A stretch of 64,000 nt of DNA from positions 151,528,001 through 151,592,000 of the forward strand of contig OZ024743.1 of the NCBI GenBank assembly GCA_964016885.1, read 5' to 3'. Positions 2,739 to 55,497 of the stretch are shown here, piece after piece. The DNA is from Eledone cirrhosa. Its lineage: Eukaryota. The notes beneath the pieces are model-generated. The model did not search any database, was not told the DNA's origin, and saw nothing but the letters and a program-made list of their open reading frames with translations. The first letter of the stretch is position 1. Every line of letters starts with the position of its first letter. The position numbers were made by a program, and so were the translations under genes.

Positions 2739-3082
2739 ACCCCGTCCCACCCCCACCCCATCCACACCACCCCGTTCTATGTAAAGTTATGTTGGTGCCG
2801 CGCCATCGAGGCCGAAACAAATGAGATTGTGTAGGTGTCACGACAAAAAAACACACAGTCCACGCTGTAATGTGGCCGTGTAGGCAACACGGTAAAAACC
2901 TCCCAGACCCACACTGTAAATGTGGTTGGTGTTAGGAAGGGCATCCAACTGTAGAAAACCTGCCAGACAGTCCTATGCGAGCAAGACAATCACTCTTGCC
3001 TCAAGTGGGACTACCCCCGTCCAAACCCATGCAAGCGTGGAACACGGACGTTAAACGCTGATGATGATGATGATGATGATGA
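2739..3082 (+). mobile_element. 5'-truncated RTE LINE, 3'UTR only (long-3'UTR family)
   Basis: Nearly identical to 17771-18120, which follows an RTE ORF stop. Ends in CCCATGCAAGCGTGGAACACGGACGTTAAACG(ATG)n. Confidence 0.9.
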
Positions 3083-3377: not shown

Positions 3378-3499
3378 TTCTGAGTTCAAATCCCGCCGAG
3401 GTTGACTTTGCCTTTCATCCTTACGGGGTCGATAAAATAAAGTACCAGTAATGCACTGGATAATTGCTGGCCTTGTGCCTAAAGTAGAAACAATTATTG
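3378..3499 (+). mobile_element. 5'-truncated SINE family A with target-site duplication
   Basis: Runs from box B to the tail. ATTATTGGCTTT is repeated on both sides. Confidence 0.85.
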
Positions 3500-4016
3500 G
3501 CTTTGACTTTCTATGGAGGAGACTTCAACTGTCAGTTGTTTGTTTCTAGGACTAGACCACTGAAGAGATTCTTTGAAATCCTAATTGTTAATTAGCAATT
3601 TCTAATATTTGCAATTAGCAATATTTTGGCAAGATTGAAACCGTATGTTTCAGGTGATTAAAATGAGTTTTATTTTTAACATTCTCTTTATTAAATTTCT
3701 TTAATTTCTTATTTGCCCTATTATATTCTATATGGGTATGATTACTTCATGGTTGTATTGCAATGAGTTCACTCTGATACAAGTTTTCACACCTGCTATT
3801 ATTGAGCAAGTACCATGAACGACATGATCATGAGTGGATGCTACTATGCATTTAGTACAGTATTGATCTACATTCTTAAATATATCCTGCCATTATATTC
3901 ATCAAAGGTCATTTATTGAAATGGAACCAGCAGGAGGGGACTTTTACAGTGCCTTTCTTAAACACTCTTTAAAAAAGTCCCAACAGCACTCCAATCTTGC
4001 TGTCAACCTTCACCAT

Positions 4017-4384: not shown

Positions 4385-4747
4385 GAAGCCTCCAGCCCAT
4401 ACTGTAAAATGGTCATGATGGCAATACAGCAAAAAAGTGCCCAGCCCATACTATAAAGTGGATGTGTAGGTCTCATGACAAAAAGCACCCAGTCCACGCT
4501 GTAAAGTGGTCGTGAATGGCAAAAGTGCACAGACAACACTGTAAAGTGGTTGTATAGGCGTCACGACAAAAAGCACCCAGTACTCAGTGTAAATGAGGTT
4601 GGTGTTAGGAAGGGCATCCAGCTGTAGAAACCAAGCCCAAATCAGTTCTGTATGAGCAAGACATGGCCACCTGACGTGGCATTGCTCACAACAGGGTAAC
4701 TCATCTAACTTATACCAGTGTGGAAAATTGGACATAAAACGATGATG
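4385..4747 (+). mobile_element. Non-autonomous RTE-tailed element with about 5 tandem ~50-nt units
   Basis: Repeated CCCAG-CCAC-CTGTAAAGTGG units, then GGTGTTAGGAAGGGCATCCAGCTGTAGAAA, then a degenerate RTE tail ending GATGATG. Confidence 0.7.
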
Positions 4748-12605: not shown

Positions 12606-14024
12606 GTATATGAATGTTAATGTCATGATATATTGAATTAGCTAGAAATAAATGTTGGATAACAGCAGGCGGTTTTACATGAGCTATATTTGTTCTTTCT
12701 GCCATTTAGTATCATGTTGGCTGACCTAGGATCAAGCAGAACTATGATCAAAGAGATTTTAGCTGATATTGTGCAATATATCTTACAGTCATAGTATATA
12801 TACAAATACATTTATTACAATGATTAGATATGATTTTAAAGAGATTCAACGCCTATTTCCTGCAGATTTGCTATCTATTTAGAGATGGTCTCATTGGCTT
12901 GAACTTCCAAAATTGTAAACGAGGAGAAAGTTAACTGGCTGAAATTGGTAGTTCTGCCTTGTCTTAAGACCCAAATAGCAGACTACATTGACCAGCATTT
13001 GTAACTACAAATGCTATTAAGGAAATTTCTACAGCCAATAATGTTTTAAAATGTGCATACATGGAGTAAAAAAAAAACAAAAAAAAACACGACAGTTGGA
13101 TGTCAAGATAAACTAAACTATTTTCCATTTCACACAGCTTTCTGAATCATTAAGGTGAGATCTAATGAGATTAATATAGTATATAGGCATAACAAGATGA
13201 AAATATTCAGTCAGATGTGAAATAATTCTAGTGTCCATATCAGAAAATTTGAAGTTGAACAGGCTGCTGAATCATAATTTCAAATGAGGTTCAACAAACC
13301 TAGCAAATCTTGATAAAGTATATGTTAGGAATAATATTTTCTTTCTAAATAAAATCATGTTTTTTTTCTCTTTAAAAACTAATTCAGCTCCTAGAAAGCA
13401 AATCTATTAATTTTAGATTTAAAGAAAATGCTTAGAGTTTGCATAAACATAAAGAAGGAGACATTTTGGCAGGCTAAAAGTAAATTGATGCTTATATTGA
13501 TGGATTTGAATATATGCATTTGTATATAATACTCAATTCATATGTAATAGATATATTTATACATTTGAAGCTTCACTCTATTGCTACACTAAAATGTTTG
13601 GTTTCATCACAAAAGAAACACAGAGCTGAGAGTAGCAAAAGAGTAAATCATTAACTTCAACCTGTCTCAGTCTATTCTCCAATATACACATGTCCTTTGC
13701 AGGTTTATTTTAATGTTTTATAATAGCAAGCTTTTCTAATGTTGTGAACTCCATCTAATACATGAACCGAGTGATATACGTATTGAGATTTATATCTTGA
13801 GAGTATTCTAAAAAGCTTTGAATATTTCATGAAAATATATCTTGTTTATATAGAAATTTTCAATACTCCTGCTGAAATATTCATTGTACCAGTCTCACCA
13901 TTAAGAAAGAAGTGACAATAGTCATGGGTTCTGGCCCATCTTTTCCAATTAAATTATAAGAATCAAAATTAATTGGAAGGCAGTTTTTCTGTATACCTAG
14001 ATGTTGAATATCTAAAATGTTAAT

Positions 14025-14405
14025 GGAGGCACATGGCTTAGTGGTTAGAGCATTGGCCTTCCAATCGAAAGGTTGTGAGTTCAATTCTTGGACTGGGTGA
14101 CGTGTTGTTTCCTTGAGCAAGACACTTTATTTCACATTGCTCCAGTTTACTCAGCTGTAGAAATGAGATGATAGGGACTGGGTCCCTATCATTCCACTGC
14201 AAAGTGGTCGTGGAGGTGCCACGGCAAAAAAAAGCACCCAGCCCACGCTGTAAAGTGGTCGTGTAGGCGCCACGGAAAAAAGCACCTAGCACTCACTGTA
14301 AATGAGGTTGGTGTTAGGAAGGGCATCCAGCTGTAGAAATCAAGCCAGAATCAGATCCCGTCCCACCCTTGCAAGCAGGGAAAAGCGGTGATAAAATGAT
14401 AATGT
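14025..14405 (+). mobile_element. tRNA-headed CORE-type SINE with RTE tail (family B)
   Basis: Box A TGGCTTAGTGG, box B GAGTTCAATTC, CORE-like TTGTTTCCTTGAGCAAGACACTT..CTCAGCTGTAGAAATGAG and an RTE-type tail. AATGTTAA lies on both flanks. Confidence 0.85.
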
Positions 14406-15334
14406 TAACACAACAAAAGAAGATACGGAACTATATTTATTACCGATGATTAGAAACATATACTTGTTAGTTACTGGTAATAAGCTTCTTGAATGTCTAA
14501 CACTTTCTTTTTGAATTGTGTTTACACATGAAGAGATGAAACATTTCAAAGACTGAGGTATCACTTTCAATTTATGATAATCTATTCTGATTATTGATAT
14601 ATTCATAGCAATGTAATACCTATGGCAATGAATTTTATCTATATGATAATAATGACTAACATCAGCTCTAAATTATTATCTGTACAGAAATTCAATTAAC
14701 TCTATAATAACTTTCAAACAACATATTCTAATTGTATTCATGTATATTTCTAGAAATACCTACAGATAATACTAACAGATAATATTGAAAGGGTGTATGA
14801 AAGTTGACAAAAGGTTATCAAGATTAATTCACAAATTCACTATTATAACTTCTATTAAAAACAGACAACTTTTTATTTGATGTAATAAAGTATAATGTTT
14901 CAGTTAATAATCATAGAGCCATCAATATGATATGTCATAAAAATCAGATGCATATGTAAAACCTGAGAATGTTTAACTGTACTTCTCTTAGCTTCTATAA
15001 CTCCATAATATCTGATATCTACATATTACATACATATTGTATATCAAAATAATTATTCATAATAATTTACATCAAACGGAAATAACAACAAAATAATATA
15101 TATTATTCATATGAAACACTGTTTTGCATGAAAGAAAAAAGAATATTACGCATATGGTATTTCTAGAATCTTGCTTTATTTTAAACATCATTTTCGAAAA
15201 GTGAAGTGCATCAACAAAATAAAACATAACCTTTAAAATGAGATTGAATTTTTTAATCTTTTGTTGGAGATCTGAAGATTCAACATAATTTCACCCTAAA
15301 AATACTTATATGCATATTTATATATATCTTAGAG

Positions 15335-15570
15335 TTTGGCTGCTCAGCTCATGATTGTAAGGTCCTGAGTTCAATTCTTGGACTAGGTAGTACATTGACT
15401 TTATGAATAAGACACTTTATTTCATATTGTTGCAGTCCACTCAGCAGGCAAAAATGAGTTGTACCTGTAATTTATGGGGCTAAACTTGTTACATATTGTG
15501 TCATGCTGAATCTCATCGAAAACTGGATTAAGGGTACTCATGTCTGTGGAATCCTCAGCCACTGTGTGTG
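15335..15570 (+). mobile_element. Older CORE-type SINE (family C)
   Basis: Box B GAGTTCAATTC, a CORE-like segment and a distinct tail GGGTACTCATGTCTGTGGAATCCTCAGCCACT. A degenerate antisense copy is at about 27410-27610. Confidence 0.65.
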
Positions 15571-16480: not shown

Positions 16481-19310
<2,830 letters not shown>

Positions 19311-38793: not shown

Positions 38794-39032
38794 ACTGAGG
38801 TTAGCTGGACATGCTCACCGTCATGCAGAGTTGACATTGCACTCAGTGCTCCTGTGGGAGCCCCTACATGGACACACTAGAAGAGGAAGACCAAGGTTAA
38901 CATATGTTGATGCCCTAAGGACAGACACTGGTCTGTTGGAGATGCAGGATATGGCAGCGATAATGAGGGACAGAGACCGCTGGAGAGAACTCGTCCATGG
39001 ATCTCGGGAATTTTACCTGCCCTAGATGAGAT
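38794..39032 (+). mobile_element. RTE/RTEX-like LINE 3' fragment
   Basis: LRLAGHAHRHAELTLHSVLLWEPLHGHTRRGRPRLTYVD. Confidence 0.9.
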
Positions 39033-39062
39033 ATATAAAATATACATAAATAATATATATAT

Positions 39063-39878
39063 CTAATCTCTATCTAAGGCGGGTAAAATTCCCGAGATCC
39101 ATGGACGAGTTCTCTCCAGCGGTCTCTGTCCCTCATTATCGCTGCCATATCCTGCATCTCCAACAGACCAGTGTCTGTCCTTAGGGCATCAACATATGTT
39201 AACCTTGGTCTTCCTCTTCTAGTGTGTCCATGTAGGGGCTCCCAAAGGAGCACTGAGTGCAATGTCAACTCTGGATGTCGGTGAGCATGTCCAGCCAACC
39301 TCAGTCTCCTCTGTGTCACTTTTGAGCTGACTTTTGGGATGCTCCCATACAGCTCTGAGTTTTTCATCCTCAGTGTATACTGATTAATGTTCAGAGCCAT
39401 CCTCAGCATTCTCGTGTAGCACCCATCCACCATCTGAGTGAGTTTCTTGGTCAGTGTCCAAGTCTCAGACCCATACAGCTACACAGACTCCACTACAGCA
39501 ATGAAGAGGCGGATTTTCAGGTCTCTACGAAGGTCCGACTTCCACACCGATCTCAAGCTGTGGCATGCCGCCCAGGCCTTGCTCTTCCTCTCAACCACAT
39601 CATCTTCCGTATTCCCAATCTTTGCTCCCAAATACAGGAAGTCCTCAACCAATTCCAGCAGCTTCCCGCCTACATTAGTGATCCCCTCTGGCTTCTCAAC
39701 ATTCTCTACCAGATATTTTGTTTTAGTCTCATTCATTCTCAGCCCCACACTCATCGACACAGTCTCAACCTCCCGCATCAAATCCTCTGCCTCCTTCACT
39801 GTATTTGTCACCAAAACTATGTCGTCGGCAAATTCAGCATCCGATACCTTTTTCGTCCTAACTCTCCTGCTCTGAGCC
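39063..39878 (-). mobile_element. 5'-truncated RTE/RTEX-like LINE without PHD insert
   Basis: RT motifs EFADDIVL, GLRMNETKTK and DFLYLG; C-terminal RRLRLAGHAHRH..GRPRLTY. Confidence 0.92.
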
Positions 39879-39990
39879 AGTAATATAATATATAATATAA
39901 TATAATATAATATAATATATATATATAATATATATATATAAAATATACATAAATAATATATGTATATAATATATATATATATAAATAATA

Positions 39991-40331
39991 CAAATACACC
40001 CCGTCCCACCACCCCCACCCGATCCACACCACCCCGTTCTATGTAAAGTTATGTTGGTGCCGCGCCATCGAGGCCGAAACAAATGAGATCGTGTAGGTGT
40101 CACGACAAAAAAAACACACAGTCCACGCTGTAATGTGGCCGTGTAGGCAACACGGTAAAAACCTCCCAGACCCACACTGTAAATGTGGTTGGTGTTAGGA
40201 AGGGCATCCAACTGTAGAAAACCTGCCAGACAGTCCTATGCGAGCAAGACAATCACTCTTGCCTCAAGTGGGACTACCCCCGTCCAAACCCATGCAAGCG
40301 TGGAACACGGACGTTAAACGCTGATGATGAT
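39991..40331 (+). mobile_element. 5'-truncated RTE LINE, 3'UTR only (long-3'UTR family)
   Basis: Nearly identical to 17764-18120 and 2739-3082. Confidence 0.92.
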
Positions 40332-41218: not shown

Positions 41219-44200
41219 TCATCATCATCATGCTTGCAAGGGTTGGACGGGCCTTATTCAGCACAGCATCTCTCCACTTGTCACGGTCCTTCGTCATCTC
41301 CTCGGTGAGATTCAGCGATCTGAGCTCTGCTCTCACCACTCTGCCCATGTTTTTCGTGGTCTACCTCTACTGCGTCTTCCTTCTACTGGGATTTCTTGGC
41401 ACTTCTTTACCCAGCGGTCATCCTACATGCGCATCACATGTCCATACCATCTCAGCCTTCTCTCCTTCACACCACAACTTATCCCTCTTATACCCAGTTT
41501 CTTTCTATGCTTGGTCATTCACGCACATTGGCATGGCACATCCAACGGAGTATACTTGCTTCATTTCGCTTTCATATCTTCTGCAGTTGCTGCCCATGTC
41601 TCACTACCATGCAGCATCGCGCATCTCACACAGGCTTCATATAACCGTCCTTTTGTACGCAGGGAGAAACCCTTCTTAGTCAACAGAGGAGGCAGCTCCC
41701 TAAACTTCTTCCAACCCGTCCTTATTCTAGATAATATGGTCTTGGAACACCCCCCTCTCATGCTAATCTGATCACCTAGGTACCGGAAGCTATCAACCAC
41801 TTCTATAGAACCCACCTGCATTGGAAAAATGTGTATATCACTGCGATTACTACTGCAAACTTTCCCTGTACATCTACTGCATATGTAGTTTTCCCTACCT
41901 GTTAGTTTGCCTGCTATCCCACTACATCTCTTGTGTACCCAAGATCTGCATTGCGTACATTTTATGGAATTTATGCCAGTTCCTTTCCTACATATCGAAC
42001 ATGGCCATTTCCCCGATGGAATTAGAGTATTGTCCTCTCTTCTACTTATCAACACTTTTGTTTTAACTATGTTCACTCTCAGGCCTCTTGATTCCAACTG
42101 CTGTTTCTATAGCCAGAATTTATTCTCTAGTTCCTCTACTGATTCGGCTATAAGAACCAGATCATCAGCATACAGAAGTTCCCATGGACAGCCAGTCTTA
42201 AACTCCTCTGTTAAACTCCATTCCTATTCTCACTTTACTGACAGTACCCCTGTACATAGCTTGCACTGTCCTCACAAGCCATTCCTCTATACCTAGTTTC
42301 CTTAGAGACCACCAGATGAGAGATCGGAGTACCCTATCAAAGGCCCTCCATAGGTCAACAAAAGCTAAGTATATTGGCTTAATCTTCTCTAAGAACTTCT
42401 CTTGTAATTGTCTCACTAAGAAGAGGGCATCTGTTGTACTTTTCCGAGGCACAAAACCACACTTCATCTCATCTAATTTGACCCTTTCTCTAATCAGTTG
42501 CACTAATATTCTCTCTGCCACTTTCATAACCTGATCCATCAGCTTTATGCCCCTATAATTGTTCCTCTCTAGAGCATCCCCTTTACCTTTGTAGCAATTT
42601 ATGAGAATACTGCTGCACCAGTCTTTGGGTATGACACCACCATATATAGCTCGATTAATGATGCGTGCTTCTCCTGATGCCTTCAGCATTACAGCAACTA
42701 TCCCCGACGGTCCAGGAGCCTTACCATTCTTCATTTCCTTAATTGCCTATTGTACCCTATATTCGTCAATCTCAATAGCTGGTTCCCCTGTCAAGTCTAC
42801 TGGAAGTAATTTCTCTCTGTCCCATTCGTTCTCCACATTCATCAGTCTCTCACAATGACTTTTCCAGGCCTCCTTTTTTTTAATCATTTGTGACACTAAC
42901 TACACTGGCATCATTCTGGACACACCTATCTCCAACAACATCCTGATTTGTACTGACACACTGCCTTGCAATGCGGAACACAGCACGTCTCTGATCTTCC
43001 CGTCGCAGAACATTGGCAAATCTACTCTCAGCCTCCCTGCGTACTAAGTGTACTTGACATCTAGCTTCTCTCTTAGCGGCTGTGTATCCTTCTCTACTCC
43101 CACCATTTTCCCAAGCCTTCCATGCAAGTCTTTTGCCTCTAATGGCCCTATCTACGATGCTGTTCCACCAGCAGGTCACTCTCTGTCTGGTTGAAGCTCT
43201 GCCACAACCATAAGTTTCTTCAGTAGCCGGCAGTAAGTTGTCACGCAAGAAATTCCAGTTATCATCTATGTCATACGGTTCTAAATCGTCTTCTTTTTCG
43301 TCATACACATCTTGAAGGGTTTTGCTAAATTTATATTTTAATGAAAGGTCTTTTAGCTTCCAGACCTTTCTTTTCCACGCCTTCCTGTATGTCTCATTCT
43401 TTCTCTTGCTTACTGAGATGTCACTAACGACTAACCTATGCTGTGGGGTACATTCTTCCCCGAGGTATGCCTTAGTATTTGACACCATCTGTCTGACTCG
43501 CTGTCTAACTAGCAGGGAGTCAATCTAGCTTATGTGCTCGCCAGATTTGTAGGTTATTAGGTGGTTGGTAGGCTTCTGGAAGTTAGTGTTGCAAATGGTT
43601 AGTGCATTTGCATCACAAAATTCAAGAAGCCTCACTACTCCATTTCTTGAGCCATAACCGTACCCTCCATGTACCTCAGTGTATCCATCCTGGAGCTGTC
43701 CAACATGTCCATTGAAGTCCCCCGCCAGCATAACGATGTCTCTGTCCTCTGTCATTGAGGCTGTTTGTAAAAGTTGCTCGTAAAAGCAGTCTTTCTCTTC
43801 TTTACCTAGGCTGCCTGGGGAGCATAGGCAGAGATGATTGTCAGTAGTCTTTTGTCTACAACTAATCTAAGCTTAATTATTGTATCACTAACTCTACCTA
43901 CCTCCATTGTCTTATTGATCTACTTCTCAGCGAGTAATATACCCACCCCAGCTAACCCATCATCATTACCCACCCAGAAACGCTTATAACTACGATGTTT
44001 GCCTGTGATTAGTCTTGCAAAGGCACCTCTCCATCTCACCTCTTGCACACAGCACACATCCACATGCCTTCTCTCCAGCATCTCCGCTATTTCACCAGAT
44101 CTACCTGGTAGAGTGCCAACATTAAGTGTGGCAACTCTGAGATGCGACATCTCGTTCTTTTTCCAGTTGAGCGATTGCTTGATGACGGTAGTGGGGTTCT

Positions 44201-44545
44201 CACACATGGCCTCACTAGCCAGCCCACTACCGTGCGCAGCCCTAACATGGTTAGTGTTATTGCTGTTTACGCAGTTGTTTTTGTGAGATTGCTTGATGAC
44301 TGTCGGGGGGTTCTTGCACATGGCCGCACCAGCCACCCCACTACCGTGTGCAGCCCTAATATGGTTAGTGTTATTGCTGTTGACGCATTTGTTGTAATTC
44401 TTATCTGTTGTGCTCATAATTTTGGCATTTATTATACTGGTTGGATGCCTTTCCTAAGACCAGCACTACTTTACAGCATGGACTGAATGCTTTTATTCGT
44501 GCCACCAGCACAAGAGAGGTCGTCTTACTGGACTCAGGGGCCCTA
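41219..44545 (-). mobile_element. Near-full-length RTE-clade LINE, disrupted: AP endonuclease, reverse transcriptase, PHD finger and C-terminal domain
   Basis: EN motifs ATLNVGTL, CCVQEVRW, AGDFNGHVG and QHRLVV; RT motifs KAPGPSGI, YRGIKL, AFVDLWRAFDRV, LLYADDL and FRYLG. Several frameshifts and stops, a short 5'UTR and a (GAT)n tail. Confidence 0.96.
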
Positions 44546-44758: not shown

Positions 44759-47208
44759 TATCATCATCATCATCACCGTTTTACGTCCGTTCTTCCACGC
44801 TAGCATGGGTTAGATGGGTTGTCCTGTTGTGGGCAGTGTCTGGTCGGCTGACCATGCCTTGCTCATACAGGAACTGATTTGGCTTGATTTCTACAGCTGG
44901 ATACCCTTCCTAACACCAACCTCATTTACAGTGAGTGCTGGGTTCTTTTTCGTGGCGCCTACACGTCCACTTTACAGTGTAGGCTGGGTGCTTTTTTGCC
45001 ATGGCACCTCCACGACCACCTTGCAGTGGGCGGTGTGGGGGCATATTGTCTATATGCTTCAGCTTGTACCCATGGGAGGTCGGGTACTCTGTATTACTGC
45101 GTGACGCCAGTGTCACAGTCGTGTGTCATCGCCTTTGAGAGGTGTAATTGGGTAAGGTCAGCTTTTATCACCTCATCCCAGGTCATCTTGGGTCTCCCCA
45201 CTCCGCGGTTTCCATCGACTTCTAGTGCTCTGCACCTTTTTATGCAGCTGTCATCCTTCATACGCATCACATGTCCATACCAACGCAACCGCCTCTCCTG
45301 CACACATCATTTGATTCCTCTTATGCACAGTCTCTCTCTCAATTCATTTATGCTTCGTCGTTCACGTATATTACTGTTACACATCCATCGGAGCATGCAG
45401 GCTTCGTTTCTCTCTAATCTACGTAAGTCTTTCACTTTCAGCGCCCAGGTCTCACTACCATGTAACATTGCTGTTCGGATACACGCATCATACAGTCTGC
45501 CTTTCATTTGGAGGGAAAAGCCTTTTGCAGCTAGCAGTGGCTCCCTGAACTTCTTCCATCCCGTTCTTACCCTAGTTATTGTACTTTCTGAACACCCACC
45601 TCCGCTGCTAATTCGGTCACCTAGGTAGCAGAAGCTGTCTACTGTTTCTACAGAGCCCTCCCAGAGATTGGTGGTACTTGTTTCCTGTGGCTGTTTGCTG
45701 CTTGCTGTCCCAGCACAGCTGCTGCATGTGAAGCCTACATTCTTAATTAAGCATCCTGAGATCCCGCTACATCTCTTGTGTACCCATTGTTTGCATTTGG
45801 GGCAGAGAATCGAGTTCCTACCTACACCTTTCCTACATACTGAGCAAGGCCATTTCCCTGAGGGGATCTGGGTTCTGTTTTCTCGTCTACTTACAAGGAC
45901 CTGAGTCTTTGTCATGTTGACTTTGAGACCCTTTCTTTCTAGTCCCTGCTTCCAAGTTTGGAATTTATTCTCTAGTTCTACCATAGATTCAGCTATAAGT
46001 GCGAGGTCATCAGCATACAGGAGTTCCCATGGGCATCCAGTCTTAAACTCCTCCGTTATTACCTGCAGGACTATGATGAACAGGAGGGGGCTAAGAACAG
46101 AGCCCTGGTGGACCCCAACCTGTACGCTAAATTCCTCGCTATACTCATTGCTAATCCTAACTTTGCTGACTGCTCCCCTATACATGGCTTGTACCGCTTT
46201 CAGAAGCCATTCATCTACTCCTAGTTTTCTAAGAGCCCACCAGATTACAGCACGTGGAACTCTGTCAAAGGCTTTCTGAAGGTCGACAAATGCCAGGTAG
46301 AGTGGCTTACTTTTAGCTAGGTACTTTTTCTGTAACTGCCTGACAAGGAAGAGGGCATCAGTTGTGCCTCTTCCTGGTACAAACCCAAATTGCATCTCGT
46401 CTAGGTTCACCCGGTCCCTAATCAACTGTGCTATAACTGTTTCTGTTACTTTCATGACCTGGTCCATCAGCTTTATACCTTTATAGTTTCCTCTATCTCG
46501 TGCATCGCCTTTACCTTTGTAGCAGTTGACAATGATGCTACTGCACCAATCTTTCGGTATGACACCTTCTAGTATTACCTGGCTATAGTGTGACCTACAG
46601 ACCCAGATGCCTTCAGCATCTCGGCAGCTATACCCGATGGACCGGTTGCCTTCCCCATCTTCATATCTTTGATTGCCTTACTTACTATGCTGCTGCTGAC
46701 TTGTACTGCTGGCCCCTCTATAGGGTCTACTTGGGGTAGGGTCTCTTCTTCCCATGCATTCTCCTCATTTAGTAATCTATCATAATGACTCTTCCATGCA
46801 TCTTTCTTCTCAGCACTTGTGAGGGCAAGCTCACCTTTATCATTCCGGATATACTTCTCTCCAATGACATCACAACTCTCTCTGACACACTGCCTCGCAA
46901 TCTTGAACACCTCCTGTTTCTGGGCCCCACGTTGCAAAACATGCTTGAATTTTCTATCCTCTGCTTCCCTCCTAGCTAAGTATACTTGTCGCCTAGCTTC
47001 CCTCTTGGTCTCTATGTAATGTACGCTGCTCCCCCCGTTCTTCCATTCTTTCCATGACTGTCTCTTGGCCTTAACTGCCTCATCTACCTTATTGTTACAC
47101 CACCAAGTCACTCTCCTCCTGCTTGTGGTCTTACTCCAGCCACAGACCTCATCCGTCGCCTCTAGTAAGTTATTTTTTAGGAACTCCCAGTTCTCTTCTA
47201 CATTGAAT
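44759..47208 (-). mobile_element. 5'-truncated RTE LINE with complete RT and PHD finger, inactivated by stops
   Basis: ORFs 45307-46467 and 46575-47208 contain QFGFVPGRGTTD, FVDLQKAFDRV, GVHQGSVLSPLLF, LLYADDL and C4HC3. The 3'UTR module and (GAT)n tail follow. Confidence 0.96.
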
Positions 47209-47380
47209 GTCTCTATATGTATATATGTGTGTATGTATGTATGTATATATGTGTGTGCGTATATATGTATATATATATTGTGCGTACGTGTGTACATTTG
47301 AATAGGTATATGCGTGTGTATGCATGAGAGCGTATGTGTGCATATATATATATATGTGTATGTATATCTGTATATATATG

Positions 47381-55091: not shown

Positions 55092-55158
<67 letters not shown>

Positions 55159-55159
<1 letters not shown>

Positions 55160-55497
55160 GAGGCACGCGGCTTAGTGGTTAGAGTATTGACCTTGCAATC
55201 GAAAGGTTGTGAGTTCAATTCTCAGACCGGGTCATGTGTTGTTTCCTTGAGCAAGACACTTTATTTCACATTGCTCCAGTTTACTCAGCTGTAAAAATGA
55301 GATGATAGGGACTGGGGTCCCTATCATCCACTGCAAAGTGGTCGTGGAGGTGCCATGGCAAAAAAGCACCCACCACTCACTGTAAATGAGGTTGGTGTTA
55401 GGAAGGGCATCCAGCTGTAGAAATCAAGCCAGAATCAGTTCCCGTCCCACCCTTGCAAGCAGGGAAAAGTGGACGTAAAATGAAATGATGATGATGA

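What the first reader, a model, noticed from the sequence alone, without database searches (positions are those of the whole stretch)
14165..14340. Covarying pseudoknot-plus-hairpin RNA module shared by an RTE 5'UTR, RTE 3'UTRs and SINE bodies
Seen: the unit folds as stem 1, a loop, an A-rich linker and a short segment complementary to the loop. Examples are GTCGTGG-aGGTG-CCACGGC-A8-gCACC (14207), TCGTG-tagGTGT-CACGA-cA6-ACAC (17867), CCGTGT-AGGca-ACACGG-tA5-CCT (17916) and GTGC-tGGTG-GCAC-gaataaaa-gCATT (minus strand, about 44485-44511). Sequence changes preserve both pairings. Each unit is followed by a CCAC-ctgtaaa-GTGG hairpin, and the last by TTGGTGTTAGGAAGGGCATCCA. The module sits just before the ATG of the full-length RTE, twice in the 3'UTR of two other RTE families, and in the CORE SINEs. 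Established: some SINE bodies derive from RTE 5' ends. Inference: this is a portable H-type pseudoknot that could act in translation initiation, exonuclease resistance or RT recruitment. I know of no structural description of it.
Basis: partly seen in the sequence, partly recalled or inferred. Interest (0 to 1): 0.8.

Follow-up and report, generated by a model that had tools for sequence, protein, structure and literature searches.

The report
Relocatable pseudoknot module in RTE retrotransposons
A short RNA module, predicted to fold as a pseudoknot plus hairpin, sits at the front of one family of jumping genes, at the back of two related families and inside the short parasitic elements that depend on them, which likely means it helps the element's own enzyme pick out its RNA rather than start translation.

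Summary
The module is real. It is a 48-52-nt unit (short stem, loop GGTGC, A-rich linker, GCACC, CTGTAAA-loop hairpin) repeated one to four times before a conserved AGGAAGGGCATCC motif, with roughly 10^5 copies per genome (extrapolated). The claim that changes preserve both pairings is overstated. Two family-level compensatory changes exist in the loop-to-3' helix, but breaks are also fixed in whole families, and no pair is significant in tree-aware tests (best p 0.12; low power). New here: placement is either-or. One RTE family has the module only in its 5'UTR; two sister families have it only in their 3'UTR. Published RTE 5' domains captured by vertebrate and insect SINEs read, by eye, as covarying H-type pseudoknots. 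Best explanation (0.45): a position-independent RNA signal for the RTE protein, with the upstream units as redundant, partly decaying duplicates. No Rfam match and no description found in ten literature searches. Fold and function are untested.

The parts
14024..14400 (+). tRNA-headed CORE-like SINE carrying the module; tail matches the 3' end of RTE family A
   Evidence: 8-bp target duplication at 14016-14023 and 14401-14408 seen
14032..14095 (+). tRNA-derived head
   Evidence: Rfam RF00005, 24.5 bits, E 0.008, below gathering score
14110..14167 (+). CORE-like body ending in a 4-bp hairpin with a CTGTA(G)AA loop
   Evidence: by-eye match to the MIR CORE printed in the supplement of PMC5786205
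14168..14192 (+). 11-bp perfect hairpin at the CORE/module junction
   Evidence: sequence
14207..14258 (+). Unit 1: stem 14207-12/14220-25, loop helix 14215-19/14234-38 (5 of 5 pairs), hairpin 14243-58
14258..14306 (+). Unit 2: same register, family-fixed C.A mismatch in the loop helix, hairpin 14292-14306
14306..14346 (+). Terminal motif (AGGAAGGGCATCC at 14316-14328) with flanking stem and a downstream GCC complementary to its GGC
16861..18120 (+). 5'-truncated RTE family B copy; module in 3'UTR at 17866-18003 (unit 1 with 4 pairs, unit 2 decayed)
44760..47215 (-). 5'-truncated RTE family C copy; module in 3'UTR at about 44880-45030
41220..44535 (-). RTE family A copy (broken ORF from ATG 44417); last unit and terminal motif at 44424-44514 in the 5'UTR; 3'UTR has no module
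55158..55490 (+). Second SINE copy with a single unit (55341)
2826..2965 (+). Module in a family B 3' fragment; further ones at 40088, 48046, 54738 (with an internal duplication), 57255 (+) and 12030, 50151, 53137 (-)
4400..4640 (+). Older copy with three to four units before the terminal motif

Best explanation
The module is a cis-element shared by RTE retrotransposons and their SINEs that likely acts as a position-independent RNA binding site for the RTE-encoded protein, helping it select its template together with the 3' tail. Shown: its anatomy, its either-or placement (5'UTR in family A, 3'UTR in sister families B and C), its retention in non-coding elements with RTE tails, and conservation of the terminal motif in other animals. 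Inferred: the terminal motif began as an RTE 5'UTR element behind a 5' ribozyme, was captured behind a CORE domain in a SINE, the junction was duplicated into 48-52-nt units, and the ancestor of B and C took the module plus tail as its 3'UTR. Predicted: each intact unit folds as an H-type pseudoknot (2-nt loop 1, no loop 2, A-rich loop 3) followed by a small hairpin; extra units are redundant and free to decay while one stays intact.
For: Placement: 8 of 8 scanned family A 5' regions (of 20 found) carry it and 15 of 15 A 3' ends lack it; 4 of 4 B and 16 of 17 C regions 600 nt upstream of the ORF lack it, the exception being a neighbouring element's 3'UTR. B and C are 74% identical to each other and 66-69% to A. 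At least one unit with 4 or more loop-helix pairs is kept in 94 of 105 C/SINE, 38 of 52 young B, 17 of 19 old B, 28 of 29 A and 22 of 28 other copies. A T-A to A-T double change marks a family with 3,112 pattern hits, 88 of 100 listed being A-T; a C-G to U-G to U-A series marks another. The motif recurs in short ORF-less and tRNA-headed elements in metagenome contigs, directly behind a twister-P1 match in L143 (51 bits, E 5.5e-9) and weakly in L135. PMC5786205 reports that RTE 5' parts are repeatedly kept in SINEs for unknown reasons; in its supplement those parts show compensated stems and a GGC(A/C)A loop helix by eye.
Against: No proposed pair is significant in a tree-shuffled test (loop helix best p 0.12, stem best p 0.06; 435 rows, 200 nulls). 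Family-level changes end paired 12 of 25 times against 54 of 164 for private ones (p 0.18); 33 of 500 shuffles reach the loop-helix score on 12 hand-picked representatives. Breaks are fixed in high-copy families. Units expand as plain minisatellites (20 x 48 nt; 3.7 x 89 nt). Other animals' elements have no upstream units, and the terminal motif's own second helix is no commoner than chance there (4 of 25 against 4.2). Nested folding energies are unremarkable (z 0 to -1.9), and GCACC can also pair with the next downstream GGTG. No binding or probing data exist.
Confidence: 0.45

Rival explanations
1. Only the terminal motif matters; the upstream units are unselected tandem duplicates whose complementarity was inherited from one ancestor and is now decaying.
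For: No significant covariation; family-fixed breaks; minisatellite-like arrays; unit number varies from zero to many; older own-genome families and the other-animal elements inspected have the motif without units.
Against: A double transversion restoring a pair in a large family; at least one intact unit kept in most copies of every main family; the rare canonical geometry.
Confidence: 0.3
2. The module promotes cap-independent translation or protects the 5' end of ribozyme-processed RTE RNA, and its other locations are passive hitch-hiking.
For: In family A the terminal helix ends 6 nt before the ATG; the motif follows a twister-like ribozyme in L143; twister variants at the 5' end of a schistosome retrotransposon support translation (PMC8501958, passages).
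Against: Families B and C lack it upstream of the ORF; it is kept in ORF-less elements; no twister core in this genome (1 hit against 1 control).
Confidence: 0.13
3. It works at the DNA level as a transcription-factor site, promoter or enhancer, as PMC5786205 speculates for conserved RTE 5' sequences.
For: The terminal motif is conserved in primary sequence rather than by covariation (partly by construction of the search pattern).
Against: Position in 3'UTRs and inside Pol III SINEs; compensated stems in the published RTE 5' domains (by eye).
Confidence: 0.07
4. The unit is an undescribed self-cleaving ribozyme or a twister remnant.
For: The 5'-most hairpin of family A aligns with the twister 3' arm of L143 (2 of 500 shuffles) and L135 (16 of 500).
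Against: No Rfam ribozyme match; the twister catalytic loop is absent; cleavage inside a SINE or 3'UTR would destroy the template; the unit hairpins align better with the CORE 3' end (0 and 2 of 300 for two of four queries) than with twister (20-284 of 300).
Confidence: 0.05

Closest known systems
RTE 5'UTR-derived SINE bodies (Bov-tA, MAR1, AfroSINE, CoeSINE4/5, HaSE, Ceph-SINE; PMC5786205)
   Same: Head + CORE + RTE 5' piece + RTE tail; MAR1 also has the CORE hairpin directly before a stem whose loop helix is GGCA/TGCC (by eye).
   Different: This motif's sequence is not in that supplement's text (0 hits); no structure is described there; tandem units and relocation into LINE 3'UTRs are not reported for it.
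Octopus OR2 CORE-SINE (named in PMC4758252)
   Same: tRNA head, CORE body, probable cephalopod host (inferred).
   Different: Sequence identity to OR2 could not be tested; the original paper is not held.
3' stem-loop recognition signals of stringent LINEs (PMC3747384, passages) and the protein-bound 5' RNA pseudoknot of R2 (recalled)
   Same: Structured cis-RNA shared by LINE and SINE and proposed to be read by the element's protein.
   Different: Here the element lies 45-130 nt inside the tail or at the far 5' end, and moves between ends.
5' twister variants of Perere-3 (PMC8501958) and HDV-like ribozymes of RTE/R2
   Same: The terminal motif directly follows a twister-P1 match in L143.
   Different: The module itself has no ribozyme match and this genome has no twister core.

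Membership tests
H-type pseudoknot | Two crossing helices with short loop 1, 0-1-nt loop 2 and longer A-rich loop 3 | tested here: met
   Unit 14207: 6+5 bp, loops 2/0/8; 0 of 300 shuffles. Not met by units 14258 and 17915.
H-type pseudoknot | Significant covariation of the loop-to-3' helix | tested here: not met
   p 0.12, p 0.18, 33 of 500; low power, two real double changes
H-type pseudoknot | Fold shown by probing or structure | not testable with these tools
   needs SHAPE/DMS or NMR
Twister ribozyme (RF03160) | P4 loop with both pseudoknot strands; covariance-model match | tested here: not met
   no match in the window or six A 5' loci; core pattern 1 hit against 1 control genome-wide
Any Rfam 15 family (HDV-like, pistol, preQ1, xrRNA) | Covariance-model match | tested here: not met
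   0 at gathering score in 64 kb; only the tRNA head below E 1 in 13950-14450
CORE-SINE | tRNA-derived head | tested here: met
   (E 0.008, below gathering score)
CORE-SINE | CORE domain after the head | tested here: inconclusive
   by-eye match to the MIR CORE; no computed alignment to a reference
RTE-clade LINE | Single ORF with APE endonuclease and RT, microsatellite tail | tested here: met
   Exo_endo_phos E 3.8e-5, RVT_1 E 5e-31, PHD insertion; (GAT)n tails
RTE-clade LINE | RT phylogeny inside the RTE clade | not tested
   no reference RT set at hand; Atlas look-alikes are RVT_1+PHD eukaryote clusters without clade names
BovB-type RTE 5' domain | Homology of the terminal motif to that domain | tested here: inconclusive
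   shared GAAG(G)..GGCA..CCA..TGCC order by eye; not computed

The most novel reading that the evidence does not exclude
RTE retrotransposons need, besides the 3' tail, an H-type pseudoknot signal that their protein reads wherever it sits; this would explain why RTE-mobilised SINEs across animals keep an internal piece of the RTE 5'UTR, and these families show the signal being duplicated, re-paired and moved from the 5' to the 3' end.
Probability: 0.3. Interest if true: 0.8.

Novelty: new variant of a known kind. Interest (0 to 1): 0.5.

Why it matters
Why RTE-dependent SINEs are bipartite is left open in PMC5786205. A movable pseudoknot signal gives a concrete hypothesis with defined pair-breaking and rescue mutants, and the either-or placement in sister families is a natural experiment against a translation role. 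RTE UTRs are also being optimised empirically for gene-writing templates (PMC13708176, passages), where a structural rule would help. If only the terminal motif matters, the result is a modest addition to repeat annotation.

Tried and rejected
Rfam scans found nothing for the module. Twister remnant as origin of the unit hairpin: weaker than a CORE origin. A separate C-G family at loop-helix pair 3: not supported, 19 hits were mixed. First unit parse had a wrong register and was redone (replaced by 39). Pile-up of 5' truncations at the module, as an RT stall would give: none clear among 28 B and 18 C ends. Census of RTE-type 3' ends (71 with motif, 10 family A ORF ends, 40 short or degenerate, of 121) was too noisy to test necessity. 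Expression: no RNA holder listed; four runs of contigs covered mainly the terminal motif and say nothing on RNA. Viral-contig scans gave 4 unrelated hits and two blanks. Bovine-type contigs (23 loci) show the same topology but no variation. Earlier scan notes: none in three look-ups. Ten paper searches listed no description of this structure; the 2011 RTE ribozyme paper was not held, subscription papers and patents are not covered, and the supplement's Fig. S4 alignment is a picture that gave no text.

Full report
Setting. The window lies in a 3.0-Gb animal genome; a cephalopod host is my inference from the repeat types and from RVT_1+PHD look-alikes mostly from molluscs. The interval 14165-14340 is the body of a SINE: tRNA-like head, CORE-like domain (by eye against the MIR CORE in the supplement of PMC5786205), the module, and a tail matching the 3' end of an EN+RT element I call family A.

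Anatomy. The unit has a fixed register: GTG, two free bases, five loop bases starting GG, CAC, an A-rich linker, five bases ending CC, CAG, then a 3-5-bp hairpin with a CTGTAA loop. The parse finds 27 units in the window and 401 in the loci then held, later 631 in 266 loci. One to four units precede a terminal motif centred on AGGAAGGGCATCC, found 14 times in the window and 11 times in 200 kb of dispersed tiles, which extrapolates to about 10^5 copies. Units also form plain tandem arrays (20 copies of 48 nt), and in family A they sit in an 89-nt 5'UTR repeat.

The covariation claim. The best unit has textbook H-type geometry. Across families the loop helix takes these forms: five pairs; five with a wobble; four with the junction pair moved into stem 1 (family A); four with a central C.A mismatch (SINE and family C unit 2); four after a C-G to U-A change plus a broken end pair (family B unit 1); four after a T-A to A-T change (older B lineage, 3,112 hits, 88 of 100 listed); and two or three pairs (younger B unit 2). 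So compensations and fixed breaks both occur. A tree-shuffled G-test found no significant pair among 1,035, family-level changes kept pairing only slightly more often than private ones (12 of 25 against 54 of 164), and 12 representatives that I picked gave 16 of 500 for both helices and 33 of 500 for the loop helix, which relatedness alone can produce. The test is underpowered, so the fold is neither shown nor excluded. The most telling pattern is that each main family keeps at least one unit with four or more loop pairs while a second unit decays.

Placement. Family A has the module 25 nt before its ATG and a 3'UTR of about 45 nt without it (8 of 8 scanned 5' regions, 15 of 15 3' ends). Families B and C have it in the 3'UTR and not in the 600 nt before the ORF (4 of 4; 16 of 17, the exception being a neighbouring element); their 5'UTRs are unrelated sequence, and longer upstream parts may be missing from these copies. 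B and C are sisters by identity, so one relocation suffices. This argues against translation initiation or 5' protection as the general role.

The terminal motif. A metagenome scan returned 120 stretches before its limit, mostly one family of short animal elements plus about ten unrelated contexts; hosts were not identified. None of those inspected has the upstream units. In L143 the motif starts where a twister-P1 match ends (51 bits, below the gathering score), weakly so in L135; both are ORF-less and end like RTEs. In this genome the motif has a downstream GCC complementary to its GGC in 28 of 57 cluster representatives (shuffles 8.3, max 16), which shared ancestry can explain; in the metagenome set it is at chance level (4 of 25). 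The twister core is absent from this genome. The unit hairpin aligns best with the SINE's own CORE end, suggesting the module was assembled at a CORE/RTE-5' junction.

Literature. PMC5786205 (main text parts 1-4 of 5, supplement parts 1-2 of 15 and passages) establishes that RTE 5'UTR pieces recur in SINE bodies, notes that some RTEs carry two copies, and gives no structure. Reading its alignments by eye, the BovB-type piece has compensated outer stems in MAR1, SINE2-2_ACar, AFROSINE3 and SINE-1_Pmo with a GGCAA/TTGCC or GGCCA/TGGCC crossing helix, and the CoeSINE4/RTE-4_PPo piece shows the same topology with changes on both sides. This was not computed, and homology to the motif here is unproven. 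Other papers were seen as passages (PMC8501958, PMC13708176, PMC13282606, PMC7245038, PMC4758252, PMC3747384), passages plus one section (PMC9115989), or a search without hits (PMC13295347). Ten searches found no description of the structure. The R2 5' pseudoknot comparison is recalled.

Verdict. A real, apparently undescribed, relocatable cis-module of RTE elements and their SINEs. The pseudoknot is plausible (about 0.55 that intact units form it) but its covariation is overstated. Protein recruitment is the best-fitting function (0.45); neutral duplication around a functional terminal motif is the main rival (0.3). New variant of a known kind; interest 0.5.

Noticed in passing
window 44414-44428 (-): The ATG inside the last helix opens a four-codon upstream ORF whose TGA overlaps the main ATG of family A (stop-start overlap); a minority of copies lack this ATG.
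   Followed up: no
window 14146-14167 and the unit hairpins: The CTGTAAA-loop hairpin matches the 3' end of the CORE domain, including MIR and MAR1 as printed in PMC5786205; a conserved CORE hairpin may deserve its own test.
   Followed up: partly
L143:319-395 (-), L135:319-376 (-), L073: Short ORF-less RTE-like elements that start at a twister-like ribozyme; in L143 the first helix is completed by the target duplication, as in Perere-3 variants; L073 has a degenerate version.
   Followed up: partly
L353-L382: Family C 5'UTRs consist of tandem repeats of about 370-400 nt, some with a SINE inserted in the repeat.
   Followed up: no
window 44160-44390 (-): Family A encodes a 38-residue N-terminal repeat in variable copy number.
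   Followed up: no
window 45714-45843 (-), 16936-17067 (+): PHD finger inserted after the RT domain in these elements.
   Followed up: no
window 38800-39100: The 3' end of another LINE (39080-39880, -) is followed by an inverted copy of itself next to a 15-nt minisatellite.
   Followed up: no
L383-L405: Most of these 23 contigs in bacterial assemblies are bovine-type BovB/Bov-A repeats, i.e. contamination.
   Followed up: no
window 15340-15560 and 3380-3500: Two other SINE-like families without the module, one CORE-like.
   Followed up: no
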